Notes: generated by a model from the letters alone, not told the origin. Positions 866-21,263 are shown, counted from the stretch's first letter. The stretch is 25,692 bases of DNA from an uncultured Candidatus Saccharibacteria bacterium (GCA_964425505.1 CAYRME010000001.1:1-25692), one strand, 5' to 3'. Translations and numbers: made by a program.

Positions 866-1053
866 TAAAAAATCAAAATTCAAAATATTAAATAAATCAA
901 AATGCAAAATGCAAAAGCCAAAATGACAAGTATTTGTAATTTCCAATTTCCAAGTAATAAATTTCCAAACAAATTTTAATTTCCAATTGTTTAATTTCCA
1001 AACAAGTTTGGAGCTTGGAAATTAGAATATTTTGGTCTTTGATCTTTGATTTT
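866..1053 (+). repeat. Dispersed intergenic repeat family A, copy 1, with a 7-mer tract at its left end
   Basis: 900-1043 is the exact reverse complement of 8504-8647; 922-1053 matches 7514-7646 with 3 differences; 978-1047 is identical to 3921-3990. Confidence 0.95.
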
Positions 1054-1117
1054 TATTACGTGGTTTCCTTAATATTAAAAAGCGACTTTGGCATTTGATG
1101 CTTGAGTCCAATGAATC

Positions 1118-1618
1118 ATGGTCGGTTTTTTGAATCCTAAAAGAATAATAATGGAAGAGATTCCGCTAGAGAAGGAGATGAGGATCGCGGATCTCGGTTG
1201 TGGTTCGGGAGGATGGGCAATTCCCCTTGCAAAAAGAAGCAAAGATGCCAAAATATACGCAGTGGATGTACTTGAAGAAGCTCTTTCCGCGCTGAGAGCG
1301 AGAGCGCAACTTGAAAGGGTTCACAATATAAGAACCATAAAGGGGGACCTTGAAAAGGGAGTAGAGCTGAAAAGTGATTTTTTTGACCTTGTCATTATTT
1401 CCAACGTTCTCTTTCAAGTGGAAGACAAGAGTTCCGTAATTCAAGAAGCTCACAGGATCCTTAAGAAAAAAGGGAGTGTATTGATAGTTGATTGGAGTAT
1501 AAAGGGAGATTCGGTACCCAAATTAATAGACAAGAGGGCAAGAGGAAAAGGGTTTCATTCTTTAAAAGATATTGAAGCGGGGGAGGATCATTTTGCCAAA
1601 CTATATGAGAAACAGTAA
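1118..1618 (+). CDS. Class I SAM-dependent methyltransferase
   Basis: Motif I IADLGCGSGG, acidic residue after strand 2 (YAVDV), FFDLVIISNVLFQ and RILKKKGSVLIVDW segments. Confidence 0.88.
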   Translation: MVGFLNPKRIIMEEIPLEKEMRIADLGCGSGGWAIPLAKRSKDAKIYAVDVLEEALSALRARAQLERVHNIRTIKGDLEKGVELKSDFFDLVIISNVLFQVEDKSSVIQEAHRILKKKGSVLIVDWSIKGDSVPKLIDKRARGKGFHSLKDIEAGEDHFAKLYEKQ

Positions 1619-1958
1619 GAGAATATTTTATACCGTTCTTTTGGGGTTCTTGCTTCTTGACCCCTTCTTTGCGCTTGCAAACAATAATGGAAATGGGGCG
1701 ATAACGATAAGAGACCCCTTGGGTGTTGACGGGATTCCCGAATTGATAGGTGCCATTGCAAGCTTTCTTGCCAACGTGGCCATCATTGCCGCTGTTATCA
1801 TATTCATTGTTGCCGGTTTCCAATATTACATGGCGGCCGGGGATCCGGAGAAGGCAAAGAATGCGGCAAATACCATAAAATGGGCCTTGGCGGGGATCGT
1901 GATCATACTTTTGGCACAAGGACTAGCAGATATTGTTATAAGTATATTGGGAGGTTGA
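1605..1958 (+). CDS. TrbC/VirB2-like (T4SS-type) pilin, membrane protein
   Basis: Signal-like N-terminus ending FALA, then two hydrophobic helices flanking AGFQYYMAAGDPEKAKNA. ATG at 1605 preferred over the ORF-track start at 1572. Confidence 0.75.
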   Translation: MRNSKRIFYTVLLGFLLLDPFFALANNNGNGAITIRDPLGVDGIPELIGAIASFLANVAIIAAVIIFIVAGFQYYMAAGDPEKAKNAANTIKWALAGIVIILLAQGLADIVISILGG

Positions 1959-1962
1959 TATT

Positions 1963-2367
1963 ATGTTTCGCTTTTTCTCAAAAAGAGGAAAGATAATAGC
2001 TTTCTTTTTCTGTGTTTTATTCATATCTTTTCCCGGTGTGGCACTTGGGAATAATAATGGTCCTTTTATAGATATAGGAAGCCAAGAGGAGTTCTTTGAG
2101 GTTCTCGGCAATATAGCTGTTTTTCTTTTCTCTCTCTTTTTGATCGCTACGGTACTTTTCTTTCTTTATGCCGCATTTACCTATTTTACATCGGCGGGGG
2201 ACCCGGAAAAGGCGAAGACGGCTCAAAACATGATAAAACACGGGCTCATAGCCGTAGTGATCGCTCTCCTGGCTTGGAGTGTGGTGTCCTTGGTGGCCTC
2301 CTTTCTTGATCCGGAATACTGGGAAGAAGAATATGAGTCCCGGATCGAGGAGTCTTATTTTTCTTGA
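1963..2367 (+). CDS. TrbC/VirB2-like pilin paralog
   Basis: Same architecture with AAFTYFTSAGDPEKAKTA loop; GGAGGT 7 nt upstream of the ATG. Confidence 0.75.
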   Translation: MFRFFSKRGKIIAFFFCVLFISFPGVALGNNNGPFIDIGSQEEFFEVLGNIAVFLFSLFLIATVLFFLYAAFTYFTSAGDPEKAKTAQNMIKHGLIAVVIALLAWSVVSLVASFLDPEYWEEEYESRIEESYFS

Positions 2368-2449
2368 CTATGGAAAAGAAATTTTTTATCCTTCTCGAAA
2401 GAGAACATAAAAATCGAAAAGGTCGTAAAGAAAACAAAATCTTTAAAGA

Positions 2450-2890
2450 ATGAAAAAAATACTCATAGCCATTTTAATGATAGCTGTTTTCGCGGTTCCG
2501 GTAGTAGGGCTTGCGAATGGTTACCTTGAACTTCCGGGTGTTAAAAGAGGTGAGGATGCTCCTGGTGTGATCATAGGAACACCGGGGGAGATTGAGGGTC
2601 TTGCCGGGTGGCTCTTGACCTTTGTATGGGGACTTTTGATCCTGGTAGTGGTAGGGTTCTTCCTGTATGCCGGATTCCTTTTTGTCACCGCTGCGGGAAG
2701 TGATGAAAAGATAACTCAGGCGAAACAGATGGTTACTTACGGAATTGTGGGAGTTATAGTAATGCTCCTTGCCTGGGGTGTAGTGGAACTCATGCAAGCA
2801 TTCTTGGAAGCACCTGACAACGGAGGTGGTAATGTGGTAATGGAGAACACCGAACACGTAAAGAATTATTTAACGGCGCGGTTCTTCTAG
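2450..2890 (+). CDS. TrbC/VirB2-like pilin paralog
   Basis: Signal peptide MKKILIAILMIAVFAVPVVGLA, two TM helices flanking AGFLFVTAAGSDEKITQA. Confidence 0.75.
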   Translation: MKKILIAILMIAVFAVPVVGLANGYLELPGVKRGEDAPGVIIGTPGEIEGLAGWLLTFVWGLLILVVVGFFLYAGFLFVTAAGSDEKITQAKQMVTYGIVGVIVMLLAWGVVELMQAFLEAPDNGGGNVVMENTEHVKNYLTARFF

Positions 2891-2913
2891 TTGAAGAAAA
2901 AAAAGAAAAGCTT

Positions 2914-2944
2914 ACGTCTCGGGGTTTTGCCTCGAGGCGTTTTA
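2914..2944 (+). terminator. Intrinsic terminator after the pilin-like cluster
   Basis: 11-bp stem acgtctcgggg/cctcgaggcgt with two G-U pairs, followed by a short T run. Confidence 0.6.
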
Positions 2945-2962
2945 TTGTAAAATATTGGAAAT

Positions 2963-3048
2963 GCTGCGGTGGCGGAATTGGTAGACGCGCATGGCTTAGG
3001 ACCATGTGGGGCTTTTGCCTCTTGGGAGTTCGAGTCTCCCCCGCAGCA
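2963..3048 (+). tRNA. tRNA-Leu (anticodon TAG), CCA not encoded
   Basis: Acceptor GCTGCGG/CCGCAGC-A, anticodon arm catgg-ctTAGga-ccatg, long variable arm, T-loop TTCGAGT. Confidence 0.96.
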
Positions 3049-3173
3049 CAATTTCTTAAGGGTTTTTACCATGAACCCTACGTGGTTCATGGCGAGTCCC
3101 TCCCCCGCAACAATTCCTTAAGAGTTTTTACCATGAACCCCACGTGGTTCATGGCGAGTCTCCCCCGCAGCAC
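3031..3173 (+). repeat. Two tandem 62-63 bp units, each with a 9-bp hairpin and a copy of the tRNA-Leu 3' end
   Basis: cgagtctcccccgcagca at 3031-3048 and 3156-3173, variant at 3093-3112; hairpins ccatgaacc-N6-ggttcatgg at 3069-3092 and 3132-3155. Confidence 0.93.
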
Positions 3174-3180
3174 CTAAAAT

Positions 3181-3211
3181 AAAAAACCCGCATTTTGCGG
3201 GTTTTTCTTTT
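3181..3211. terminator. Bidirectional intrinsic terminator between tRNA-Leu and hsp20
   Basis: aaaaacccgc-atttt-gcgggttttt, with A and T runs on either side, between convergent genes. Confidence 0.8.
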
Positions 3212-3219
3212 TTGATACT

Positions 3220-3654
3220 TTATACGTCTATCTTTCTTTTCTTTTCTTTTTCTATCTTGGGAGCTTTTACGGTTAGTACACCTTCTTCCATATCGGCCTC
3301 GATTCGAGAGGGGTCTGTTTCCTCCGGCAAGATGACCTCCCTTCGGAATTCTCCGAAATGGCATTCTTGAGTATAGAACTCCTTTATTTCTTGCTTTTCG
3401 GGTCTATTTCTCTTACCTTTGATCGTTACCATATCCTTTTCCGTGGTTATTTCAAGATCATCCTTCCTTACTCCCGCTATGGGAGCTTGGATAACAACAT
3501 GATCCTCCGTTTCGTAAACATCCACGGCAAGCTCTCCTTCTTTTTTCATCCACGATCTTTCCTTCTTCTCTTCCTTGGAAGATTCTTCTTTTTTAGGCTT
3601 CTCATTGTTTAGTTTTTCCGCTTTCCATCTTTTCTCGTTGTCTTTTTTTGTCAT
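3220..3654 (-). CDS. Small heat shock protein, Hsp20/alpha-crystallin family
   Basis: LAVDVYETEDHVVIQAPIAGV, ECHFGEFRREVILP, ADMEEGVLTVKAPK alpha-crystallin motifs. Confidence 0.92.
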   Translation of the reverse strand: MTKKDNEKRWKAEKLNNEKPKKEESSKEEKKERSWMKKEGELAVDVYETEDHVVIQAPIAGVRKDDLEITTEKDMVTIKGKRNRPEKQEIKEFYTQECHFGEFRREVILPEETDPSRIEADMEEGVLTVKAPKIEKEKKRKIDV

Positions 3655-3721
3655 AGAGATTGAATCTAAATGATCATGAGTTCAAAATAGCACTTGCTTT
3701 GAAAAAAGACAAGGCAAATAA

Positions 3722-3836
3722 TAAATCCTCCACCCCACCTCTTAATTTTCAATTCTCAATTCTATCTTCTTCGCTGAAATAAATTTCAGCTACGAAGGTC
3801 AAGGCAATTTTCAATTTCTAAATCCTCCACCCCACC
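3722..3836 (+). repeat. Repeat family B, copy 1: hairpin module between 18-bp direct repeats
   Basis: taaatcctccaccccacc at 3722-3739 and 3819-3836; 3745-3814 matches 10777-10846 at 67/70; hairpin cttcg-ctgaaat-aa-atttcag-cta-cgaag at 3769-3797. Confidence 0.9.
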
Positions 3837-3920
3837 AAGAGAGAAATCTCAAATAACAAATTACAAATAAGTTCCAAGCTCCAATGATCGAAAGCTCAAA
3901 TCCGCCGCCGCCGAATTTTC

Positions 3921-3990
3921 AATTTCCAATTGTTTAATTTCCAAACAAGTTTGGAGCTTGGAAATTAGAATATTTTGGTCTTTGATCTTT
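3921..3990 (+). repeat. Repeat family A, partial copy overlapping the valS 3' end
   Basis: 70/70 identical to 978-1047. Confidence 0.95.
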
Positions 3991-6235
3991 TGGGCCATTT
4001 TTCTATCATTATATACTCTCTTGATTCGGTTGATCTCGGGATAAGAGACCATATCTCTTCTGTTATATAGGGCATGAAAGGATGGAGAAGCTTTAGTTGT
4101 TCCGAGAGTTGCAAGTAAAGATTCTGAAGGGCGGACAATCGCTCTTCATCGTTTCCGTTATAAATACTATCCTTACTCTCTTCTATGATAACGTCCGCAA
4201 AAGTGTGCCAGAAATACTGATACAACTTCTCGGCCGCCAGATAAAATCGAAAGTTTTCCATTTGTTCGGTGACATCTCTTATATGCTCCTCAAGCTTCTC
4301 TTTATCCCTTTTGTCTTTTTCAAGAAGAGTTATTTCGTTATCGGATATTCTTCTCATTTCTTCTTCGTCATCGGGCATCGTAGAAAGAACGAAGCGTGTG
4401 GCGTTCCATATCTTGTTCGCAAAATGTTTTTGCGCTTTTACCTTTTCTTCGGATATCTTGACGTCGTTCCCCGGAGCGGAACCTATGATAAGGGACATTC
4501 TTAGGGCGTCAGTCCCATATTCCTTTGAGACCTCCATGGGATCCAAGATATTGCCCAGAGATTTACTCATTTTTTGCCCCTTCTCATCGCGAACTATTCC
4601 GTGGAGATAAACATAACGAAAAGGAATTTCTCCCATGAGTGAAGTGGTCATGAGGATCATTCTTGCCACCCAAAAGAAGAGTATGTCGTGCCCCGTCTCA
4701 AGGACGGTAGTGGGATGGTAGCTATCAAGATCCTCGGACCCTTGAGGCCATCCCAGGGTGGAAAAGGTCCAAAGCCCGGAAGAGAACCATGTGTCCAGAG
4801 TATCGGTGTCTCTTTCCATTTCACAATCTTCGCAGAAAGGACATTTTTTAGGCTCCTTGGTGCCGACCGTAAAGTTGGCGTCCTTTTTTTCTTTGTCTTC
4901 CTTTTTACAATAATAGGCGGGAATGCGATGGCCGAACCATATCTGTCTGCTTATGCACCAATCGCGAAGGTTCTCTATCCAGTGGAAATAAGTCTTCTCA
5001 AATCTTTCGGGAAGAATGGAGATATGGTCCTCTCTCACGGAAAGGTCCATTAGTTTCTTGAGAGTTGTCTTTTCTCCTTTTTCCACGAAAGAAAGGGAGG
5101 AATGAGGGAATTCGAATTCTTTGTTCACATCAATGAACCACTGCATCTTGGGGAGAGGTTCTATTATTCCGTCCGTTCGTTCCGCTTTGGCGATGTTCTG
5201 CTCCACAAGCTCTTCTTTTACAAGAAGCTCATTCTTTCTCAATTCTTCTACTATTTTTTCTCGAGCTTCTTTTGTTCTCATTCCTTGAAATTGAGAGTTT
5301 TCTATATCGATCCTCCCTTTTTCATTGATGACTTGTTTCATCTCCAGGCCATGCTTTTGCGCTATCTCCCAGTCCGTAAAACTGTGTGCGGGAGTGACCC
5401 CTACCGCCCCCGTTCCGAATTCGGGGTCGATGTTCTCGTCTCCCACCACGCTTATAAAAAGCTCTTCACCGAGGAAATTTACTTGAAAATCCTTTCCTAT
5501 GTATTCTTTGTACCTCTCATCTTCGGGATTTACCGCTACTGCTGTGTCGCCAAGCTTTGTTTCCGGCCTGGTTGTGGCAACGGGTATGGGAAAGTTCTTA
5601 TCGTAATAGAAGGTATAAAGATCTCCTTTGGTCTCTTCGTAATTCACCTCGTCATCGGACACGGTGGTCTGTCCTTCGGGATCGAAGTTCACGATCCTGA
5701 TGCCTCGGTAGATAAGACCGAGCTCATAAAGTTCTTGGAATGCCGTTTCCACCGCCTCATTCCTTTTTTCGTCAAGAGTGTATGCCTCTCTTTTCCAATC
5801 CACGGAAGCCCCCATTTTCTTTACCTGTTCCACGATAGTTTCGTGACTATTTCTTGCGAAGTCGTTGACTCTTTTTAAAAATTCTTCTTTTCCAAGGTCA
5901 TGACGGGTCTTATCCTCCTCTTTTTTAAGAAGAGATTCCACTTTGGATTGGGTGGCAATAGCGGCGTGATCCGTTCCCGGGACCCAAAGAGTTCTCAAGC
6001 CTTTCATTCGATGGAAACGAACCATTATGTCTTCCGTGGTTACTGCCAGGGCGTGTCCCATATGGAGGATTCCCGTGACATTGGGGGGAGGAAGAACAAT
6101 AGAGAAATGGGGAGCATCTTTGGACGTCACTCCTTTTTCTATGCAGGTCTCGGGACTGAAAAGGTCCTCCTTTTTCCATTTCTCATAGATCTTATCTTCG
6201 GTTTCTTTGTGGTCGTAGTTCTTTGGTATCTTCAT
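3965..6235 (-). CDS. valS: Valyl-tRNA synthetase, short form (756 aa) lacking the C-terminal coiled-coil arm
   Basis: PPPNVTGILHMGHA (HIGH), GTDHAAIATQ, editing domain TTRPET, DWCISRQIWFGHRIP, KMSKS motif. Confidence 0.97.
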   Translation of the reverse strand: MKIPKNYDHKETEDKIYEKWKKEDLFSPETCIEKGVTSKDAPHFSIVLPPPNVTGILHMGHALAVTTEDIMVRFHRMKGLRTLWVPGTDHAAIATQSKVESLLKKEEDKTRHDLGKEEFLKRVNDFARNSHETIVEQVKKMGASVDWKREAYTLDEKRNEAVETAFQELYELGLIYRGIRIVNFDPEGQTTVSDDEVNYEETKGDLYTFYYDKNFPIPVATTRPETKLGDTAVAVNPEDERYKEYIGKDFQVNFLGEELFISVVGDENIDPEFGTGAVGVTPAHSFTDWEIAQKHGLEMKQVINEKGRIDIENSQFQGMRTKEAREKIVEELRKNELLVKEELVEQNIAKAERTDGIIEPLPKMQWFIDVNKEFEFPHSSLSFVEKGEKTTLKKLMDLSVREDHISILPERFEKTYFHWIENLRDWCISRQIWFGHRIPAYYCKKEDKEKKDANFTVGTKEPKKCPFCEDCEMERDTDTLDTWFSSGLWTFSTLGWPQGSEDLDSYHPTTVLETGHDILFFWVARMILMTTSLMGEIPFRYVYLHGIVRDEKGQKMSKSLGNILDPMEVSKEYGTDALRMSLIIGSAPGNDVKISEEKVKAQKHFANKIWNATRFVLSTMPDDEEEMRRISDNEITLLEKDKRDKEKLEEHIRDVTEQMENFRFYLAAEKLYQYFWHTFADVIIEESKDSIYNGNDEERLSALQNLYLQLSEQLKLLHPFMPYITEEIWSLIPRSTESREYIMIEKWPKRSKTKIF

Positions 6236-6270
6236 CGTTCCTTGATTTTTAAGTAAAGAATTAATGGAAA

Positions 6271-7413
6271 TTACATTCTATCATACATCTTTAAATTCGC
6301 ATCCGGTCCTAAGTTCTCGGGTGCGACCTCCTCTTTTTCCGCCGTGGCCGCAATTCCTATTATTTCGGCATTATCGGTGGAAAGTTCCGGAGAGGGTAAT
6401 ATCACCTCGGTTCCCGGAAACTCTTTTTCGAGATTCTTAGCTTTTTCTTGAAGGGTTTGGTTGGCGGTCACTCCTCCTCCCATGATAAGGGTTTTTGTGC
6501 CATGGTCCTTCATTGCTTTTTTTGACTTGGAGATAAGTACATCCGTTATCGCTTCCTCTATTTCCTTTGCCATTTCGCCCACATATTCTTCACTCTTTTT
6601 TGTTTTTTCATCTTGAGAAAGAACATCATAGAGTACCGCCGTTTTGAGACCCGAAAAGCTGAAGTCGTAATCATTACTATTTATCATCGGCCTGGGAAGG
6701 TTAATTTCGAATTTTGAGTTTTGAATTTCGAATTCAGCTGCTTTAGTGGCTATGGCGGGTCCTCCGGGGTAACCAAGTCCCAGGATCCTTGCGGTCTTGT
6801 CAAAACACTCTCCCGCGGCGTCATCTCTTGTCCCTCCCAGGAGTTCGAATGATCCGGGAGAATGCATAAGAATGAGCTCCGTATGGCCCCCGCTTACGAT
6901 AAGGGTTATGGCAGGGAATTTCATTTCTTTCTTATCTTTTAAAAAGAAAAGGACGTGCGCCTTTATGTGATTTACGGGGATAATGGGAACTTCAAGGTAG
7001 AGCGAGAGAGCTTTTGCGAAGTTGATACCCGCAAACAAACAGGGCTCAAGTCCGGGACCCTTTGTTACCGCTATTTTATCGATTTCCTTTTTTATTTGGT
7101 ATTTCTTGAAGAATGCTCTTGTTTGTTCAAGCAAGGTTTTTTCTCTCGTAAATATCTCTTCAAGGCCTTCCGGTTCAGAAACCCCTCCCTCCTCTAGCAG
7201 GTCGGCTTTCTCCAGCGCTTTAATGAGCGTGGGAACGAGATTCCTTTGATGAGCTCTCTTGGCCTCAAAAGGGTAAACACCTCCCCATTTTTTATGAATT
7301 CCATCTTGAGAGGAAAGGGCGCTTCCTCGTACTTTTATTTCCCCATTTTCTCTCTTTTCCGTGATGGCTACTCCTGTATCATCACAAGATGTCTCGATAC
7401 TTAGAATCAACAT
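6271..7413 (-). CDS. tsaD: tRNA N6-adenosine threonylcarbamoyltransferase TsaD
   Basis: IETSCDDT, GPGL, NHIKAH metal motif, VSGGHTEL, TRDDAAGECFDKTARILGLGYPGGP, FSFSGLKTA, STDNA. Confidence 0.96.
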   Translation of the reverse strand: MLILSIETSCDDTGVAITEKRENGEIKVRGSALSSQDGIHKKWGGVYPFEAKRAHQRNLVPTLIKALEKADLLEEGGVSEPEGLEEIFTREKTLLEQTRAFFKKYQIKKEIDKIAVTKGPGLEPCLFAGINFAKALSLYLEVPIIPVNHIKAHVLFFLKDKKEMKFPAITLIVSGGHTELILMHSPGSFELLGGTRDDAAGECFDKTARILGLGYPGGPAIATKAAEFEIQNSKFEINLPRPMINSNDYDFSFSGLKTAVLYDVLSQDEKTKKSEEYVGEMAKEIEEAITDVLISKSKKAMKDHGTKTLIMGGGVTANQTLQEKAKNLEKEFPGTEVILPSPELSTDNAEIIGIAATAEKEEVAPENLGPDANLKMYDRM

Positions 7414-7422
7414 AATCTAAAA

Positions 7423-7646
7423 TTGAAAAATCAAAAATCAAAATATTAAATAAGTCAAAATGCAAAGTTACTTAATCGCGAAGCGATTACAGTGAGCGAA
7501 GCGAACGGTTTGTAATGACAAGTATTTGTAATTTCCAATTTCCAAGTAATAAATTTCCAAACAAATTTTAATTTCCAATTGTTTAATTTCCAAAACAAGT
7601 TTGGAGTTTGGAAATTAGAATATTTTGGTCTTTGATTTTTGATTTT
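7423..7646 (+). repeat. Repeat family A copy (7514-7646) with a left 7-mer tract and inserted module D (7468-7518)
   Basis: Matches 922-1053 with one extra A and two C-to-T changes; left tract resembles 866-910; the 7468-7518 segment has an inverted relative at 20119-20169. Confidence 0.93.
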
Positions 7647-7660
7647 ATATTTTATATCTC

Positions 7661-7689
7661 TTGCATCTTTTTATGGCTTATATTATAAT
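7661..7689 (+). promoter_or_regulatory. Sigma70-type promoter for tRNA-Glu
   Basis: TTGCAT-17 nt-TATAAT about 50 nt upstream of the tRNA. Confidence 0.6.
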
Positions 7690-7740
7690 ACTTCTCCAGT
7701 TAAAAATAAAATTCGAATACCGAAATTCGAATTTTTAAAT

Positions 7741-7815
7741 GGCCCCGTCGTCTAGTCTGGCCTAGGACGCCGGGTTTTCATCCCGGTAACAGGGGTTCAA
7801 ATCCCCTCGGGGTCA
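7741..7815 (+). tRNA. tRNA-Glu (anticodon TTC), CCA not encoded
   Basis: Acceptor GGCCCCG/CGGGGTC-A, anticodon arm ccggg-ttTTCat-cccgg, T arm agggg-ttcaaat-cccct. Confidence 0.95.
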
Positions 7816-7822
7816 CAAATGC

Positions 7823-7855
7823 AAAGAACGGCCTCTTCTGGCCGTTCTTTTGTTT
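7823..7855. terminator. Bidirectional intrinsic terminator
   Basis: Perfect 11-bp stem aaagaacggcc-tcttct-ggccgttcttt plus T run, between convergent tRNA units. Confidence 0.8.
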
Positions 7856-7885
7856 GAAGTATAAGGGAGTCCTGCTCTCCTAAAG

Positions 7886-8164
7886 CGGCGGGAGTAAGGG
7901 AGTAGCACCTGATTGGGGTTCGGATGCTACTCCCTAAATTCGAACCCCTGGGTGTATTTTCACGATCCCGTAAAAGAGCGGTGGGTGCAGGATTCGAACC
8001 TGCAAGGGCTTGCGCCCGGCGGTTTTCAAGACCGCTGCCTTGCCAATTCGGCCAACCCACCGCCCTTTTACGGGATGCGTTACTAAAACCATTCTTGAAT
8101 GCAAGTCTCGTAAAATCCCTTTACGGGACAAGATCGCCCCGTTCGTCCGCTCCGGCATCCCGCC
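7886..8164 (-). pseudogene. Interrupted tRNA-Ser-like gene (outer frame) in three segments
   Basis: 5' half GGCGGGA-TG-CCGGAGCGGACGAACGG-G-GCGAT-CTTG (8164-8129); middle ATCGT...AGGGG-TTCGAAT (7966-7938); 3' end TCCCGCC-G (7893-7886) pairs perfectly with the 5' GGCGGGA. The variable arm and T-stem do not reconstruct cleanly. Confidence 0.7.
7979..8061 (-). tRNA. tRNA-Ser (anticodon TGA), nested in the outer interrupted tRNA
   Basis: Acceptor GGTGGGT/ACCCACC-G, anticodon arm gcggt-ctTGAaa-accgc, variable arm gggc-gcaa-gccc, T arm gcagg-ttcgaat-cctgc. Confidence 0.95.
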
Positions 8165-8175
8165 TAAATTAAATG

Positions 8176-8259
8176 CGGAGGAGGCGGGACTCGAACCCGC
8201 AAGCGGAGAACCGCTACGGATTAGCAATCCGCTGCCTTACCGATTCGGCGCACTCCTCC
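8176..8259 (-). tRNA. tRNA-Ser (anticodon GCT)
   Basis: Acceptor GGAGGAG/CTCCTCC-G, anticodon arm gcgga-ttGCTaa-tccgt, variable arm agcgg-ttct-ccgct, T arm gcggg-ttcgagt-cccgc. Confidence 0.93.
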
Positions 8260-8270
8260 TGTAATTTTTT

Positions 8271-8299
8271 ATTTTACCTTATTCTTCCCACCTTTTCAA
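8271..8299 (-). promoter_or_regulatory. Sigma70-type promoter for the tRNA-Ser cluster
   Basis: Minus strand TTGAAA-17 nt-TAAAAT ending 11 nt before tRNA-Ser(GCT). Confidence 0.6.
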
Positions 8300-8383
8300 T
8301 GCCCTTTTGTTCATTTCGGGACTGGATAGCAAGGTGATCTCTTTTAAAAAGCATCTTCTTTTATTATAATAAAGGAGTTTTAT

Positions 8384-8456
8384 GCGCCCGTAGCTCAGCG
8401 GATAGAGCGCTTCCCTGCGGAGGAAGAGGTCAGGGGTTCAAATCCTCTCGGGCGCA
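8384..8456 (+). tRNA. tRNA-Arg (anticodon GCG)
   Basis: Acceptor GCGCCCG/CGGGCGC-A, D arm gctcagcggatagagc, anticodon arm cttcc-ctGCGga-ggaag. Confidence 0.94.
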
Positions 8457-8503
8457 CAAATAATTGTCCTTCCACCTCTCCACCCCAAACTCAAAGATCA
8501 AAA

Positions 8504-8647
8504 ATCAAAGACCAAAATATTCTAATTTCCAAGCTCCAAACTTGTTTGGAAATTAAACAATTGGAAATTAAAATTTGTTTGGAAATTTATTACTTGGAAA
8601 TTGGAAATTACAAATACTTGTCATTTTGGCTTTTGCATTTTGCATTT
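8504..8647 (-). repeat. Repeat family A, inverted copy immediately upstream of recG
   Basis: 144/144 reverse complement of 900-1043. Confidence 0.96.
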
Positions 8648-8655
8648 ATATTAAT

Positions 8656-10752
8656 ATGAACTTTTCCACCCCCGTTTCCAAGGTACCGAATGTGGGACCT
8701 GTTTACGAAAAGAGGTTGAAGAAAATAGGGATAAGAACGGTGGGAGATCTTCTCTACCACTTTCCTTCCCATTACGAGGACCTCTCCCGAAAAACTTCCA
8801 TATCCTCCATTTTTCATGATGGCAAATATACTGTTGAAGGAGAGGTGGAGAAGGCGGAATCGGGAAGAACTCCTCGAAGAAGGATCCCTTTTTCGGAGAT
8901 CCTGTTGCGAGATGAGACGGGAGAGATGAAGATAGTTTTCTTTAATCAACCCTATCTTGCAAAGAACTTAAAAGAAGGAGAAAAACTCCTTGTTTCGGGG
9001 AAGGTTTATCATTCCAAGGAAGGCCTGCAATTCATGAACCCTTATTACGAAAAAGTGGAAAAGAATTCCGGCGGGCTTGGAATAATTCCCGTGTACCGTG
9101 AAACGAGAGGAGTGAATTCTAAATGGCTGCGTTCGGTGATAAAACCACTCTTGGAAAACACAACCCCCAGGATCGAAGATACTCTCCCTCTTGAGATCAT
9201 TCAAGAGAAAGAACTTTACTCTCTTTCTAGCGCTTTGAGTGAAATTCACTTTCCTTCTTCAATGAGATCCTTGCAAAAGGCAAAGGAGAGATTTTCTTTC
9301 GAAAGAATTCTTCTTCTTCAGTTGTTCCTCTTAAAGCAAAAAACGAACCTTTCCCGGAAAAAAGGTATCCCCATAGAAGTGGAAATAGAAGAGGTTCGGG
9401 ATCTTGTCTCCGTCCTTCCTTTTGATCTTACTCAGGCCCAAAGAAAAGCTGCTTGGCAGATAGTAAAGGACCTTGAAAAAGAAGTGCCTATGAATAGGCT
9501 CCTTGAAGGGGATGTGGGGTCCGGAAAGACGGTAGTGGCCGTGATAGCTGCTCTCGCGGCGATAAAAAGCGGGTATCAGGTGGCCTTCATGGCTCCCACA
9601 GAAGTTCTTTCCAAGCAACACTTCGATGAAGTGGCGAAACTCCTTTGGAAATTCAAAGCGGACATCGGACTCTTAACGGGAAAGAAGGACAAGATGAGAT
9701 CGCAAAAATTAAAAGGAGATACATTGGAGGTATCAAGGAATAAACTTATCGAAAAGACCCGAAAAGGAGAGGTGGACCTCTTAGTGGGAACTCATGCTCT
9801 TATTCAGGACAAGGTAAAATTCAAGGATCTGGCGCTCGTTATTTTGGATGAACAGCATCGCTTTGGAGTGGAGCAAAGATCAAAATTATGCTTGAAAGAT
9901 GACGATCGCATTCCTCACTTACTTTCCATGACGGCAACTCCTATTCCCAGAACTCTTACACTAACTCTTTACGGGGACCTTGATCTTTCCGTTATAGATG
10001 AAATGCCTCAAGGAAGAAAGAAGACCGTAACTCGTCTTGTTCCTCCTCAAAAAAGAGAAAAAGCTTATGAGTTCATTAAAAAAGAATTGAGAGCGGGCCG
10101 GCAAGCATTCTTTATATGCCCGCGCATCGAGGAATCCGAAAAAGAAGAAGATTCTCCGTGGAAAGGAGTAAAATCGGTGCGAGAAGAAAAAGAGAGACTT
10201 GAAAGAGAGGTGTTTTCGGAATTCCGCGTAGAACTTTTGCACGGAAAAATGAGTTCTACCGAAAAAGAGGGGATCATGAAGAATTTTAGAGACGGGGAGA
10301 TAGATGTCCTTGTCTCCACTTCGGTTGTGGAGGTGGGCGTGGATATCAAGAACGCGAGCGTTATGGTCATCGAGGGAGCGGAGATGTTCGGGTTGTCTCA
10401 GCTTCATCAGTTCCGAGGAAGAGTGGGGAGAGGAGATTTTCAATCCTATTGCTTTCTCTTTACCGATTCAAGGAGCAAGAAGACCAGACAGAGATTAAAA
10501 GCTTTGGTGCAATCTGATAACGGATTCGATCTTGCCGAAAAGGATCTTCAAATACGTGGTCCGGGAGATTTCGTGGGAAAAAGGCAGTGGGGAACCCCGG
10601 ACTTTACTATGGATGCTTTGACTGACAAGGAAATGGTTGAAGATGCAAAGAATACAGCAAAGGATTTTCTTTCAAGGGATCCCGAATTGAATCAATATCC
10701 CATCTTAAAGAGAAGAGTTGCCGCTCTTGAGAAGAAGTTTCACCTGGAGTAG
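8656..10752 (+). CDS. recG: ATP-dependent DNA helicase RecG
   Basis: N-terminal wedge/OB region (DLLYHFPSHYED), EGDVGSGKT, DEQHRFG, MTATPIPR, QLHQFRGRVGRG, DLQIRGPG. True start is the ATG at 8656; the ORF-track extension lies inside repeat A. Confidence 0.96.
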   Translation: MNFSTPVSKVPNVGPVYEKRLKKIGIRTVGDLLYHFPSHYEDLSRKTSISSIFHDGKYTVEGEVEKAESGRTPRRRIPFSEILLRDETGEMKIVFFNQPYLAKNLKEGEKLLVSGKVYHSKEGLQFMNPYYEKVEKNSGGLGIIPVYRETRGVNSKWLRSVIKPLLENTTPRIEDTLPLEIIQEKELYSLSSALSEIHFPSSMRSLQKAKERFSFERILLLQLFLLKQKTNLSRKKGIPIEVEIEEVRDLVSVLPFDLTQAQRKAAWQIVKDLEKEVPMNRLLEGDVGSGKTVVAVIAALAAIKSGYQVAFMAPTEVLSKQHFDEVAKLLWKFKADIGLLTGKKDKMRSQKLKGDTLEVSRNKLIEKTRKGEVDLLVGTHALIQDKVKFKDLALVILDEQHRFGVEQRSKLCLKDDDRIPHLLSMTATPIPRTLTLTLYGDLDLSVIDEMPQGRKKTVTRLVPPQKREKAYEFIKKELRAGRQAFFICPRIEESEKEEDSPWKGVKSVREEKERLEREVFSEFRVELLHGKMSSTEKEGIMKNFRDGEIDVLVSTSVVEVGVDIKNASVMVIEGAEMFGLSQLHQFRGRVGRGDFQSYCFLFTDSRSKKTRQRLKALVQSDNGFDLAEKDLQIRGPGDFVGKRQWGTPDFTMDALTDKEMVEDAKNTAKDFLSRDPELNQYPILKRRVAALEKKFHLE

Positions 10753-10776
10753 CCCCACCACAACCCCGCCTCCTTG

Positions 10777-10846
10777 ATTTTCAATTCTCAATTCTACCTA
10801 CTTCGCTGAAATAAATTTCAGCTACGAAGGTCGAGGCAATTTTCAA
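10777..10846 (+). repeat. Repeat family B, copy 2
   Basis: 67/70 identical to 3745-3814, same hairpin at 10801-10829. Confidence 0.92.
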
Positions 10847-10869
10847 ATCCACCCCATCCCAAGGGGAAA

Positions 10870-10969
10870 TTACAAATCACAAATAACAAACTACAAATAA
10901 ATCTCAATGACCGAAGGACCAAATCCACCACCGTTCCGCCGGAAATTTGTAGTCCGCCGCCACCGCCAC
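10870..10969 (+). repeat. 7-mer tract plus repeat family C, copy 1
   Basis: ttacaaa-tcacaaa-taacaaa-ctacaaa at 10870-10897; caccaccgttccgccggaaatttgtag (10926-10952) and tccgccgccaccgccac (10953-10969) recur at 11767-11793 and 11824-11840. Confidence 0.88.
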
Positions 10970-11081
10970 TAAAGATGCTCATGAATATTTTGTGGTTCTA
11001 ATATTTATATCTTTGCATTTTGCATCTTGAATTTTATGATAGGGTATAAAACCTAGTTTTAACTAAGTTCGGTATTTTATT

Positions 11082-11729: not shown

Positions 11730-11766
11730 AAAAAAGGGGGGGGTCTCAAACAACAAGCTCCAAATT

Positions 11767-11907
11767 CACCACCGTTCCGCCGGAAATTTGTAGAAATTTA
11801 TTGAAATTGATAGAAATTTGTCGTCCGCCGCCACCGCCACCGCCGAAGATATTCATGGTTACGAACTACAAACTAAAAGTTACAAACTATAAACTGCAAA
11901 CTAATTA
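11767..11907 (+). repeat. Repeat family C, copy 2 (with 30-nt internal insert), plus 7-mer tract
   Basis: Both C blocks as at 10926-10969; seven 7-mers ttacgaa-ctacaaa-ctaaaag-ttacaaa-ctataaa-ctgcaaa-ctaatta at 11859-11907. Confidence 0.88.
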
Positions 11908-19975: not shown

Positions 19976-20005
19976 GACCATGACGATGACAATGACGATG
20001 ACAAT
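19976..20005 (+). repeat. Five tandem GACNAT hexamers
   Basis: gaccat-gacgat-gacaat-gacgat-gacaat. Confidence 0.85.
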
Positions 20006-20118
20006 AAAAACTCAAAATTCAAAAATCCTGAAAAAATAGAAAATAGTTTTCCATACCATTCTCTATTTTCTATATCACTGTTTTCCCTTTTCTATATATC
20101 TTTTTGAATTTTTCTCTT

Positions 20119-20169
20119 TCATTACAAATCGTTCACTTCGTTCACTGTGATCGATTCGCGATTAAGTGA
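20119..20169 (-). repeat. Repeat module D, inverted diverged copy
   Basis: 45/51 identical to the reverse complement of 7468-7518. Confidence 0.85.
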
Positions 20170-20206
20170 TATTTGACTTTTGCATTTTGAGTTTTGGATT
20201 TCATCA

Positions 20207-20234
20207 TTGACACTCTTCGGGTGATTGCTAGAAT
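20207..20234 (+). promoter_or_regulatory. Strong sigma70-type promoter for pilin 1
   Basis: TTGACA-16 nt-TAGAAT with extended -10 TGn. Confidence 0.72.
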
Positions 20235-20290
20235 GCAAGGCAAGGAGTTATGCATAAAAGGTCGTTTAAGCAAAGTTTAAAATAAAAAGT

Positions 20291-20701
20291 ATGTTACAAA
20301 AGATAAAGAAAGGCGGTTTCACCCTCATTGAGCTACTTGTCGTTATCGCCATCATCGCTATTCTCGCTACACTCGTTCTCGTAGCATTAGAAGGAGCTCA
20401 AGATCAGGCGGAGGATGCCGATAAACAGGGAGCGATATCTCAAATCAGATCCTTGGCGCAATTGGAGTATTCGGAAGAAGGAAATTATTCCGGCATTGAG
20501 GATCGTGATGAGTTTCCCGAAGACGAAATACACGGTGATGAGGTCCAGGTACTTGTAGATGATACCGACTCCGACTATTTCGTGGCTTATATAGAGAACT
20601 CCGAAGGCAATTATTTCTGTACGGATGATAGTCTGGATGTAGGTGAGGTTGATAATGCACCTGACGATGGAGCCGAAGAATGCCCCACTTTCATGGACTA
20701 A
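20291..20701 (+). CDS. Type IV prepilin 1 (probable major pilin)
   Basis: Basic leader, G|[17 protein letters not shown] cleavage/methylation motif with Glu5, C-terminal Cys pair. Confidence 0.93.
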   Translation: MLQKIKKGGFTLIELLVVIAIIAILATLVLVALEGAQDQAEDADKQGAISQIRSLAQLEYSEEGNYSGIEDRDEFPEDEIHGDEVQVLVDDTDSDYFVAYIENSEGNYFCTDDSLDVGEVDNAPDDGAEECPTFMD

Positions 20702-20724
20702 AAGCAAGCGACCAAAGTGATCAC

Positions 20725-20764
20725 AAAAAGAGCGGCTCTTTTATTTGAGGGGCCGCTCTTTCTC
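20725..20764 (+). terminator. Intrinsic terminator after pilin 1 (second copy at 21287-21326)
   Basis: aaagagcggctctt...ggggccgctcttt stem with G-U pairs and a T-rich tail. Confidence 0.75.
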
Positions 20765-20792
20765 TTGATGGAAAAGTAAAACTTGTTATACT
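20765..20792 (+). promoter_or_regulatory. Promoter for pilin 2 (second copy at 21327-21354 for pilin 3)
   Basis: TTGATG-16 nt-TATACT with extended -10 TGn, directly after the terminator. Confidence 0.62.
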
Positions 20793-20852
20793 AGAGAAAG
20801 TAAGAATAAGGTCAAAGAATACAAAGGTCGTATAAAATAAAACAAGAAGTAT

Positions 20853-21263
20853 ATGTTACAAAAAATAAAGAAAGGCGGTTTCACCCTCATTGAGCTACTT
20901 GTCGTTATCGCCATCATCGCTATTCTCGCTACACTCGTTCTCGTAGCATTAGAAGGAGCTCAAGATCAGGCGGAGGATGCCGATAAACAGGGAGCGATAT
21001 CTCAAATCAGATCCTTGGCGCAATTGGAGTATTCGGAAGAAGGAAATTATTCCGGCATTGAGGATCGTGATGAGTTTCCCGAAGACGAAATACACGGTGA
21101 TGAGGTCCAGGTACTTGTAGATGATACCGACTCCGACTATTTCGTGGCTTATATAGAGAACTCCGAAGGCAATTATTTCTGTACGGATGATAGTCTGGAT
21201 GTAGGTGAGGTTGATAATGCACCTGACGATGGAGCCGAAGAATGCCCCACTTTCATGGACTAA
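20853..21263 (+). CDS. Type IV prepilin 2, protein identical to prepilin 1
   Basis: Identical translation. Confidence 0.93.
   Translation: MLQKIKKGGFTLIELLVVIAIIAILATLVLVALEGAQDQAEDADKQGAISQIRSLAQLEYSEEGNYSGIEDRDEFPEDEIHGDEVQVLVDDTDSDYFVAYIENSEGNYFCTDDSLDVGEVDNAPDDGAEECPTFMD

What the first reader, a model, noticed from the sequence alone, without database searches (positions are those of the whole stretch)
866..8647. Dispersed ~145-bp AT-rich repeat (family A) in four places with no transposase nearby
Seen: one exact 144-bp inverted pair (900-1043 and 8504-8647), a near-identical direct copy (7514-7646) and an exact 70-bp partial copy (3921-3990). The unit holds five AATTTCCA words followed by their complement TTGGAAATT and an internal ccaaac-aa-gtttgg hairpin, with 7-mer tracts at both ends. 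Copies sit between housekeeping and tRNA genes. Inference: a recently spreading non-autonomous element (MITE- or REP-like), a repeated protein-binding array, or a structured RNA.
Basis: partly seen in the sequence, partly recalled or inferred. Interest (0 to 1): 0.68.

Follow-up and report, generated by a model that had tools for sequence, protein, structure and literature searches.

The report
Small palindromic intergenic repeat family
A roughly 190-bp AT-rich non-coding repeat, absent from related genomes with the same gene order, has recently filled several gene spacers of an uncultured soda-lake Patescibacteria bacterium; it most resembles the small transposase-less mobile repeats (MITEs) known from other bacteria.

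Summary
900-1043 is the exact reverse complement of 8504-8647 (144 nt). 7514-7646 is a near-identical direct copy. 3921-3990 is an exact 70-nt partial copy.

The copies are real. Independent short-read assemblies from several soda-lake metagenomes reach them from unique flanks and break inside them.

The unit is about 186 bp (868-1054). It has inverted tracts of degenerate heptamers at its ends, five AATTTCCAA words plus one inverted, and folds as one long imperfect hairpin.

Four related Paceibacteria-like genomes keep the same gene order but have tiny spacers at the four sites: 4-65, 46-68, 78-130 and 2-3 nt, against 329, 310, 327 and 198 nt here. None has the word array. The copies are therefore lineage-specific insertions.

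Depth in the metagenomes shows further diverged or partial copies on contigs with this organism's coverage. Exact copies are limited to this neighbourhood.

Best reading (about 0.5): a new sequence family of MITE-, Correia- or ERIC-like non-autonomous intergenic repeats, with nearby copies kept identical by gene conversion. Against a classical MITE, no target-site duplication was found, copy boundaries vary, and no transposase could be sought.

Inferred side effects are a new C-terminus and stop for valS, new upstream sequence (with a candidate outward promoter) for tsaD and recG, and an inversion-prone perfect inverted pair. Interest is moderate.

The parts
868..1054 (+). Copy c1, full length (about 186 bp), between the gyrA stop (788) and the methyltransferase start (1118). 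Layout: left heptamer tract (NNCAAAA)n, then five AATTTCCAA words, then the inverted word and hairpin, then right heptamer tract (TTTTGNN)n.
   Evidence: The left boundary at 868 and right boundary at 1053/1054 are also where other copies' flanks join in the metagenome contigs.
7425..7653 (+). Copy c2, full length. 13 nt of c1 (909-921) are replaced here by a 47-nt hairpin module (7467-7513). It lies 10 nt upstream of the tsaD start codon (7413, - strand) and upstream of the tRNA-Glu promoter.
   Evidence: It is assembled intact in an independent ENA contig, L001.
8493..8650 (-). Copy c3, inverted. It lacks the left heptamer tract. It lies between the 3' end of tRNA-Arg (8457) and the recG ATG (8656). 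Its core 8504-8647 is the exact inverted partner of 900-1043.
   Evidence: (I1). Both of its junctions are seen as loose ends in runs X1, X2 and X4.
3914..3990 (+). Copy c4, partial (exact over 3921-3990, equal to 978-1047 of c1). It overlaps the 3' end of valS on the - strand and supplies its last 8 codons (KRSKTKIF) and its stop codon (3965-3967).
993..1023 (+). Hairpin in the core: 9-bp outer stem AATTTCCAA/TTGGAAATT around the inner CCAAAC-AA-GTTTGG. The c2 differences fall in the loop and are not compensatory.
   Evidence: (I13).
973..1001 (-). Promoter-like site inside c1 on the antisense strand (TTGGAA-17-TAAAAT), pointing to the element's left end. Here that direction is antisense to the gyrA 3' end.
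   Evidence: Consensus match only (9 of 12).
7565..7593 (-). The same promoter-like site in c2, pointing at tsaD.
8546..8574 (+). The same promoter-like site in c3, pointing at recG (ATG at 8656).
   Evidence: It is almost the same as the site in front of tRNA-Ser(gct), TTGAAA-17-TAAAAT at 8299-8271.
19997..20205 (.). A second element with different cargo but the same kind of ends. It has 31-nt terminal inverted heptamer tracts at 81% and carries a relative of the 47-nt module of c2 (20119-20195 against 7442-7518, 77%, inverted). It lies just upstream of the pilin promoter.
   Evidence: (I5, I11).

Best explanation
Family A is a new sequence family of small, non-coding, non-autonomous intergenic repeats of the MITE, Correia or ERIC kind, in an uncultured soda-lake Patescibacteria (Paceibacteria-like) bacterium.

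Shown:
- The unit is about 186 bp and imperfectly palindromic. It is bounded by inverted tracts of degenerate heptamers: AAAAATCAAAATTCAAAATATT on the left and AATATTTTGGTCTTTGATCTTT on the right.
- The core carries five direct AATTTCCAA words and one inverted.
- The unit was added to compact spacers in this lineage only.
- It occurs in both orientations.
- It has further diverged or partial copies in the same organism.

Inferred:
- It was copied into new spacers by a transposase supplied in trans that recognises the heptamer-tract ends.
- The copies within this roughly 8-11-kb neighbourhood stay identical through recent local copying or gene conversion.

Inferred consequences:
- c4 replaced the last codons and the stop of valS.
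- c2 and c3 separate tsaD and recG from their ancestral upstream DNA. These genes must now be transcribed from or through the element, possibly from its outward TTGGAA-17-TAAAAT site.
- The perfect 144-bp inverted pair c1/c3 is a substrate for inversion of the 7.4 kb between them.
For: Reality of the copies:
- ENA contig L001 equals window 903-8644 at 100% and contains c2 and c4 intact.
- Logan contigs of X1-X3 enter c1 from the gyrA side and from the methyltransferase side, and c3's two flanks are seen as loose ends.
- Contigs of several samples end in c1, c2 or c3.

Lineage-specific presence. Relatives L014-L016 keep the whole order gyrA, methyltransferase, pilins, tRNA-Leu, hsp20, valS, tsaD, tRNA-Glu, recG; L017-L019 are short contigs that cover only its gyrA-methyltransferase end. 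Their spacers are much shorter:
- gyrA to methyltransferase: 4, 11, 15 and about 65 nt, against 329 nt here.
- valS to hsp20: 46-68 nt, against 310 nt.
- tsaD to tRNA-Glu: 78-130 nt, against 327 nt.
- tRNA-Arg to recG ATG: 2-3 nt, against 198 nt.
- None of them has an AATTTCC array.

MITE-like anatomy:
- The ends form a 22-nt inverted repeat at 82% (868-889 against 1026-1047).
- The whole unit folds as one hairpin, with z of -4.3 (RNA, + strand), -3.5 (RNA, - strand) and -4.9 (DNA).
- The end motif AAAAWYTCAAAATTCAAAA occurs 11 times against 0.41 expected. It also bounds a second element with other cargo at 19997-20205.
- c2 is a hybrid that carries a module of that second element (I5, 12).
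- No ORF in the unit has relatives.

More copies in the same organism:
- In X1, summed depth over the unit is 150-250 (972-1048) and 600-760 (937-971), against 14-16 in the flanks.
- Contigs of 3.4, 5.3, 14.4 and 29 kb with depth 14-17 carry partial copies.
- At least 7 different left flanks join at 937/938.
- One further copy, with 6 mismatches in 102 nt and inverted, lies about 3.3 kb left of c1 (record 1).

Co-occurrence: the unit is found only in the runs that hold this organism.

valS: relatives end at ...EKWP plus 0-10 residues. Here the end is EKWP-KRSKTKIF-stop, read from c4.

Promoter-like site: it is present in c1, c2 and c3, faces tsaD and recG, and is as good as the tRNA-Ser promoter match.
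Against: - No consistent target-site duplication. Only 4-nt matches flank c1 and c2 (ACGT, ATCT). An 8-nt TCCACCCC match flanks c3, but it lies in a recurrent C-rich motif and in recG coding sequence.
- Boundaries are not sharp. c3 lacks the left tract, c4 starts at 978, other copies start at 937/938, 945 or 978 and end at 975-1003, and the terminal heptamers differ in number and order between copies.
- Exact 48-53-nt words of the core have only 2.5-2.9 times single-copy depth. The identical copies are therefore just the local ones, which local duplication or gene conversion explains as well as transposition.
- The ratio of core depth to flank depth varies between runs (about 7 to 45 times). 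Part of the extra depth may belong to other genomes.
- No element-free allele was seen in four runs.
- No transposase is in the window, and the rest of the genome could not be searched.
- The relatives are distant (valS at most 75% identical), so the empty sites are not exact pre-insertion sequences.
- The spacers also hold other added DNA.
Confidence: 0.5

Rival explanations
1. Growth in place and spread by recombination, with no transposase. Heptamer microsatellite tracts arise in spacers by slippage. They degenerate and duplicate (7 nt, then 15/18 nt, then 33 nt units). The resulting mosaics are then copied between nearby spacers by template switching or gene conversion, using the tracts or short C-rich motifs as microhomology.
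For: - The core is itself an internal tandem duplication (period 33, 2 copies, 84%) built on AATTTCC x2.
- Many other spacers of the window carry period-7 tracts without the element.
- A closer relative (L017) has only a heptamer tract (CAAATAA CCAATGA CAAATGG ...) in the gyrA-methyltransferase spacer.
- Copy boundaries are variable and coincide with word starts.
- The terminal heptamers differ in number and order between copies.
- Identical copies are all local.
- An 8-nt TCCACCCC microhomology flanks c3.
Against: - An exact 144-nt block in opposite orientation 7.4 kb away, and a 70-nt exact block inside the valS 3' end, are hard to obtain by slippage. Conversion needs homology on both sides in the right orientation at each recipient site.
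- The ends are inverted repeats shared with a second element of different cargo, as expected for recognition by one enzyme.
Confidence: 0.22
2. A selected functional module. The AATTTCCAA words would form an array of binding sites for a DNA-binding protein of this lineage (regulator or nucleoid protein), and the element would be kept because it supplies promoter or upstream-element function to neighbouring genes.
For: - The word occurs six times per unit at spacings of 7, 15, 18, 15 and 22 nt, and recurs in variant copies. Loose ends read TTGGAAATTGTTTGGAAATTG.
- A promoter-like site faces tsaD and recG.
- The TTTGCATTTTGC-type tracts of the left end also sit upstream of the DUF975 gene (11012-11035) and of the pilin promoter (20172-20201) (I10/I13, 24, 25).
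- The right tract of c1 supplies a TTGATT hexamer 17 nt before TAATAT, upstream of the methyltransferase gene (read).
Against: - Orientation relative to genes is inconsistent. In c1 the inner promoter faces the 3' end of gyrA, and c4 sits on the 3' end of valS.
- Relatives express the same housekeeping genes without it.
- Selection on binding sites does not explain 100% identity of the spacers between the words.
- No candidate protein is known.
Confidence: 0.15
3. A multi-copy structured small RNA gene, or a cis-acting RNA hairpin such as a processing site or terminator.
For: - Both strands fold much better than shuffles, with z of -4.3 and -3.5.
- Long hairpin repeats in transcripts are RNase III targets in Neisseria (PMC10969869).
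Against: - No Rfam family matches. The best hit has E of 0.6 and lies far below its gathering score.
- No intrinsic-terminator-like site lies in any copy.
- The three differences between c1 and c2 in the hairpin region are not compensatory.
- The fold follows from the palindromic DNA itself.
- No RNA data are available.
Confidence: 0.08
4. Assembly artefact: the exact copies would be collapsed or mis-joined repeats created by the assembler.
For: - Independent k=141 contigs end inside the exact 144-nt core (L001 equals 903-8644).
- The window's joins at c1 and c3 therefore rest on the repeat itself. The orientation of the 7.4-kb segment is not fixed by word overlap.
Against: - All eight junctions between unique flank and repeat are seen in independent runs or assemblies.
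- c2 and c4 are assembled through.
- The window's order keeps the gyrA-methyltransferase and tRNA-Arg-recG adjacencies of all relatives.
- Core word depth is 2.5-2.9 times single copy, as expected for real copies.
Confidence: 0.03

Closest known systems
Correia repeat-enclosed elements (CREE/NEMIS) of Neisseria
   Same: - About 100-200 bp, non-coding, with terminal inverted repeats.
- Tens to hundreds of intergenic copies in either orientation.
- No transposase of its own.
- Often immediately upstream of genes, and carries sigma-70-like outward promoters.
- Forms hairpins in transcripts (PMC10969869).
   Different: - No sequence similarity.
- Correia has sharp 26-bp inverted ends and a TA duplication. 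Here the ends are variable heptamer tracts and no duplication was found.
- Promoter activity is not tested here.
ERIC/IRU elements of Enterobacteriaceae and Vibrionaceae
   Same: - Imperfect palindrome of similar size (127 bp).
- Intergenic, with occasional overlap of gene ends.
- Copy number differs between lineages.
- No known transposase (PMC10969869).
   Different: - No sequence similarity.
- ERIC copies are old and diverged, and are conserved across genera. Family A is confined to one lineage, and its local copies are identical.
BOX, RUP and SPRITE repeats of Streptococcus pneumoniae
   Same: - Modular, mosaic small repeats that cluster together and insert into one another in spacers (PMC10969869).
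- Here, c2 carries a module of another element, and family A abuts a second repeat family (3741-3814) and C-rich modules.
   Different: - Unrelated sequences.
- RUP has a known partner, IS630-Spn1 (from established knowledge). No partner is known here.
Rickettsia palindromic elements and Coxiella QMITEs
   Same: Small palindromic repeats that can fuse with gene ends and change a protein terminus (PMC10969869, PMC5896051). Here c4 supplies 8 codons and the stop of valS.
   Different: Only one such case here, and it lies after the conserved end of the protein, so there is no in-frame internal insertion.
Cyanobacterial STRR heptanucleotide tandem repeats (from established knowledge: Mazel et al. 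1990)
   Same: Intergenic tandem tracts with a 7-nt unit, as at the ends of family A and in many other spacers of this window.
   Different: STRR arrays are longer and more regular, and are not the ends of a defined palindromic unit. The comparison rests on memory and was not tested.
REP/BIME elements with RAYT (Y1) transposases
   Same: Intergenic, hairpin-forming, mosaic arrangement, no transposase inside.
   Different: REPs are 20-40-nt G+C-rich palindromes with a conserved 5' tetranucleotide. Family A is 186 bp and AT-rich. A RAYT could not be sought.

Membership tests
MITE (prokaryotic) | Small (about 50-500 bp) and without coding capacity | tested here: met
   The unit is about 186 bp (229 bp in c2). 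It has only short ORFs, and a search with all six reading frames found no relatives.
MITE (prokaryotic) | Terminal inverted repeats | tested here: met
   868-889 against 1026-1047: 22 nt at 82%. In c2, 23 nt at 87%. The repeats are imperfect and built of heptamer tracts. The same type of end occurs on a second element (I11, 73).
MITE (prokaryotic) | Target-site duplication of fixed length flanking each copy | tested here: not met
   Only ACGT (c1), ATCT (c2) and TCCACCCC (c3, in a recurrent motif) were found, at different lengths and offsets. The ends are fuzzy, so the test is weak.
MITE (prokaryotic) | Many dispersed copies with common, sharp ends | tested here: inconclusive
   Several extra copies exist in the organism, but their boundaries vary (868, 900, 937/938, 945, 978; 975-1054). 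The full genome is not available.
MITE (prokaryotic) | Absent from orthologous sites of relatives (insertion polymorphism) | tested here: met
   All four sites are short and empty in syntenic relatives. The relatives are distant, and no within-population empty allele was seen.
MITE (prokaryotic) | A related autonomous insertion sequence with the same ends | not testable with these tools
   None is in the window. The exact 21-mer scans of genome and metagenome collections gave only chance hits. The short-read genome bin of this species is broken at the repeats.
REP/BIME | 20-40-nt G+C-rich imperfect palindrome with a conserved 5' tetranucleotide, and a RAYT gene in the genome | tested here: not met
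   The unit is 186 bp and AT-rich, and its hairpin stems are A/T-rich. RAYT presence is not testable.
Known RNA family (Rfam 15) | Score at or above a family's gathering threshold | tested here: not met
   Only tRNAs pass in the window. On 780-1120 the best score is 20.5 bits against a gathering score of 43.
DNA uptake sequence (DUS/USS-like) | Short word over-represented throughout the genome, including in genes | tested here: not met
   21 of 23 AATTTCCAA words lie inside the four copies. Two lie elsewhere, against 1.1 expected.
DnaA-box cluster / replication origin | Clustered TTATCCACA-like boxes at a single locus | tested here: not met
   The words (ATTTCCAAA/T/G) lack the CACA end of the box (read). 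The unit occurs at four or more loci, and no dnaA gene is in the window.

The most novel reading that the evidence does not exclude
The heptamer-tract-bounded units (family A, the element at 19997-20205 and their hybrids) are a kind of mobile or self-propagating intergenic module specific to Patescibacteria. They would spread without a classical transposase, seeded in heptamer microsatellites and copied by template switching. Alternatively, their AATTTCCAA arrays would be binding sites of a lineage-specific DNA-binding protein that organises or regulates these minimal genomes.
Probability: 0.12. Interest if true: 0.7.

Novelty: new member of a known kind. Interest (0 to 1): 0.42.

Why it matters
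- Patescibacteria (CPR) genomes are small and compact. They are known almost only from short-read bins, which break at exactly such repeats, so small mobile repeats in them are practically undescribed. Two literature searches found nothing on the topic.
- This family shows that spacers in such a genome can grow five-fold (about 200 to about 1160 nt over four sites).
- It also rewires the upstream regions of essential genes (tsaD, recG) and changes a protein terminus (valS).
- It creates perfect inverted repeats that can flip a 7.4-kb block of housekeeping genes.
- In practice, it explains why assemblies of this organism fragment here.

Tried and rejected
- Exact 21-mer scans (TTGGAAATTAGAATATTTTGG) of genome contigs and metagenome contigs gave only chance matches inside unrelated coding sequences.
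- Two viral-contig scans gave 0 hits.
- blastn against plasmids and phages gave no match.
- A protein search with the six reading frames of the unit, meant to catch ORFs called through other copies, found nothing.
- A gyrA-fragment search, meant to fetch the organism's full gyrA contig and the copy upstream of it, returned only relatives of at most 81% identity. These were still useful as empty sites.
- No RNA run holds the organism.
- A covariation analysis was dropped, because the copies are nearly identical.
- valS truncation by c4 is rejected. Relatives are 725-770 aa and end at the same EKWP.
- The heptamer-motif hit inside tsaD (6705-6730) is ordinary coding sequence with no insertion relative to relatives.
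- DUS, oriC and REP readings are rejected (see membership tests).
- DGR template/variable repeat is rejected. The copies are identical rather than differing at adenines, and no reverse transcriptase is in the window.

Full report
**Observation**

- 900-1043 is the exact reverse complement of 8504-8647. The match is 144 nt and cannot be extended.
- 3921-3990 equals 978-1047 exactly (70 nt).
- 7514-7646 differs from 922-1054 by one inserted A, two substitutions and one deleted base.
- The repeat finder recovers the same families. It shows the inverted arms continuing at 95% over 173 nt (882-1054 and 8493-8665).
- Aligning the four copies shows that c1 and c2 share a further left part, back to about 868 and 7425. 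c3 lacks that tract. c4 is only the right 77 nt.
- AATTTCCAA occurs 23 times in the window against 1.1 expected, and 21 of those lie in the four copies.
- Period-7 tracts sit at both ends, and the core is an internal 33-nt tandem duplication.

**Context**

The window encodes the following:
- the C-terminal part of GyrA;
- a small methyltransferase;
- T4SS-pilin-like proteins;
- tRNA-Leu, Hsp20, ValRS and TsaD;
- tRNA-Glu, two tRNA-Ser and tRNA-Arg;
- RecG, a DUF975 protein and a type IV pilus operon.

No transposase, integrase or nuclease lies near the copies. The best ValRS relatives are from Patescibacteria (Paceibacterota, Yonathbacteria) bins and are at most 75% identical. The sequence is held only by soda-lake metagenomes.

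**Are the copies real?**

- ENA contig L001 from another assembly equals window 903-8644 at 100%. It starts in c3, runs through c2 (including its 47-nt module) and c4, and ends in c1.
- Other contigs start or end in c2 or c3.
- Logan contigs of three runs enter c1 from the gyrA side (to 929) and from the methyltransferase side (from 1018). The two flanks of c3 appear as loose ends.
- Exact 48-53-nt words of the core have depth 34.5-40.5, against 13.6-16 for single-copy flanks. This fits the two to three copies that share each word here.

One caveat follows. The k=141 contigs end inside the exact 144-nt core, so the window's joins at c1 and c3 rest on the repeat, and word overlap alone does not fix the orientation of the 7.4-kb segment. 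The window's order is the one that keeps the gyrA-methyltransferase and tRNA-Arg-recG adjacencies seen in all relatives.

**How many copies?**

- In run X1 the summed depth over the unit is as follows:

| Region | Depth |
|---|---|
| flanks | 14-16 |
| 867-894 | about 40 |
| 895-936 | 57-190 |
| 937-971 | 600-760 |
| 972-1048 | 150-250 |

- Contigs of 3.4, 5.3, 14.4 and 29 kb with depth 14-17, which is the organism's coverage, carry partial copies of 37-59 nt (mostly 37-40 nt) with 2-4 mismatches.
- At least seven different left flanks join at 937/938, others at 945 and 978. Other right ends lie at 975-1003.
- One more copy, with 6 mismatches in 102 nt and inverted, lies about 3.3 kb left of c1, beyond gyrA (record 1).
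- The ratio of core to flank depth differs between runs (about 7 to 45 times). Part of the depth may therefore come from other genomes or be lost at low coverage.
- The unit is found in no run that lacks the organism.
- Exact-pattern scans of the genome, metagenome and viral collections, and blastn against plasmids and phages, found no true copy. This is partly because short-read bins break at the repeat.

**Empty sites**

Three relatives (L014, L015, L016) keep the whole gene order. Three short contigs (L017-L019) cover only its gyrA-methyltransferase end. Their spacers compare with the window as follows:

| Site | Relatives | Window |
|---|---|---|
| gyrA to methyltransferase (c1) | 4, 11, 15 and about 65 nt | 329 nt |
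| valS to hsp20 (c4) | 46-68 nt | 310 nt |
| tsaD to tRNA-Glu (c2) | 78-130 nt | 327 nt |
| tRNA-Arg to recG ATG (c3) | 2-3 nt | 198 nt |

- None of the relatives has an AATTTCC array.
- The 65-nt spacer of the closest relative, L017, consists of a heptamer tract only.
- The copies are thus additions in this lineage. Because the relatives are distant, the sites are not exact pre-insertion sequences.
- No element-free allele was seen in four runs.

**Anatomy**

- The ends are inverted. AAAAATCAAAATTCAAAATATT (868-889) pairs with AATATTTTGGTCTTTGATCTTT (1026-1047) at 82%.
- The whole unit folds as one long imperfect hairpin on either strand, with z of -4.3 and -3.5 as RNA and -4.9 as DNA.
- The end motif AAAAWYTCAAAATTCAAAA has 11 matches against 0.41 expected. 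It also bounds a second element of different content at 19997-20205, with 31-nt inverted ends at 81%.
- c2 carries, in place of 13 nt of c1, a 47-nt hairpin module whose relative lies in that second element (I5, 12, 24). Shared ends with exchangeable cargo, and hybrid copies, are what families mobilised by one enzyme look like.
- Against that, no consistent flanking duplication exists. The number and order of terminal heptamers differ between copies, and boundaries vary.

**Effects on neighbours**

- valS in relatives ends at ...EKWP plus 0-10 residues. Here it ends EKWP-KRSKTKIF-stop, with the last eight codons and the TAA read from c4. The protein is not truncated: it has 756 aa against 725-770 aa in relatives.
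- c2 begins 10 nt from the tsaD ATG, and c3 ends 5 nt before the recG ATG. Both genes have therefore lost their ancestral upstream DNA. In the relative, recG follows tRNA-Arg directly.
- The consensus scan finds the same site, TTGGAA-17-TAAAAT, on the antisense strand of c1, c2 and c3. In c2 it faces tsaD and in c3 it faces recG. It closely resembles the match in front of tRNA-Ser, TTGAAA-17-TAAAAT. This is a consensus match, not evidence of activity. In c1 it faces the 3' end of gyrA.
- No terminator-like site lies in any copy.

**Interpretation**

- The best-supported reading is a new sequence family of MITE-, Correia- or ERIC-like intergenic repeats (features of those families from PMC10969869). 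The local copies would be kept identical by recent local copying or gene conversion.
- The main rival is growth from heptamer tracts with recombinational spread. It is favoured by the fuzzy ends, the tract-only spacer in L017, the internal tandem structure and the purely local identity.
- A selected binding-site or promoter module and a structured RNA remain possible but lack positive evidence.
- REP, DUS, oriC and DGR readings fail their defining features.

**Verdict**

The feature is real, lineage-specific and moderately interesting, mainly because such repeats are practically undescribed in Patescibacteria and are invisible in most of their assemblies. It belongs to a known kind of element.

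Noticed in passing
window 3031-3173: A 62-nt unit is repeated 2.3 times in tandem right after tRNA-Leu (2963-3049). Each unit starts with a copy of the tRNA's 3' end (CGAGTCTCCCCCGCAGCA) and is followed by a hairpin, CCATGAACC..GGTTCATGG. It looks like serial duplication of a tRNA 3' end, as left by integrating elements (D9, 13, 27).
   Followed up: no
window 3741-3814 and 10773-10846: A second repeat family: 74 nt at 95%, with the hairpin GCTGAAAT-AA-ATTTCAGC, flanked by C-rich CCACCCCACC modules and CAAATNA heptamer tracts. Depth in X1 is about 3 times single copy (D6/D11, 7, 25, 72). The whole stretches 3700-3915 and 10773-10975 look homologous.
   Followed up: partly
window 10818-10982 (-) and 11746-11856 (-): Two small ORFs on the minus strand have similar glycine-rich starts, MSIFSGGGGGLQISGGTVVDL and MNIFGGGGGGGRQISINF..LQISGGTVVNL. 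They lie on repeated DNA (D14 at 92%, D17 at 96%). It is unclear whether they are genes or by-products of the repeats.
   Followed up: no
window 20290-20589 and 20852-21151: Two pilin genes are 100% identical over 300 nt in the window. Independent assemblies of the same organism (L009, L010) have a different 152-aa second pilin there, with 52 mismatches and 10 gaps over 20206-21215. This is either strain variation in a pilin cassette or a mis-assembly of the window (D2, 38, 66).
   Followed up: partly
window 7741-10752 compared with L014 1052-3480: The block tRNA-Arg-recG is inverted relative to tsaD and tRNA-Glu when compared with three relatives. Two tRNA-Ser genes sit at the junction. The breakpoints fall in repeat-laden spacers, and c2 and c3 (mutually inverted) bracket the tRNA cluster.
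   Followed up: partly
L014 1120-1135: In the relative, the recG start codon follows the 3' end of tRNA-Arg by only 2-3 nt. recG is presumably made from the tRNA transcript with almost no leader.
   Followed up: no
window 7467-7513: The 47-nt module of c2 contains TAATCGC-GAA-GCGATTA and two GCGAAGC motifs. GCGAAGC is the very stable DNA mini-hairpin sequence known from the literature (from memory). A diverged copy lies at 20119-20195.
   Followed up: no
L017 862-926: In a closer relative (GyrA C-terminal fragment 81% identical), the gyrA-methyltransferase spacer consists of a degenerate heptamer tract, CAAATAA CCAATGA CAAATGG CCAATGA CCGACAA CCAAGGA, without family A.
   Followed up: no
window 8479-8486 and 8665-8672: The 8-nt direct repeat TCCACCCC flanks c3 together with the recG start codon. 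It could be microhomology used when the block was copied, or chance in a recurrent C-rich motif.
   Followed up: no
window, most gene starts (e.g. 3654, 7413, 8656, 11082, 20291): No Shine-Dalgarno-like sequence is visible upstream of most start codons read here. Translation initiation in this organism seems not to rely on it (read).
   Followed up: no
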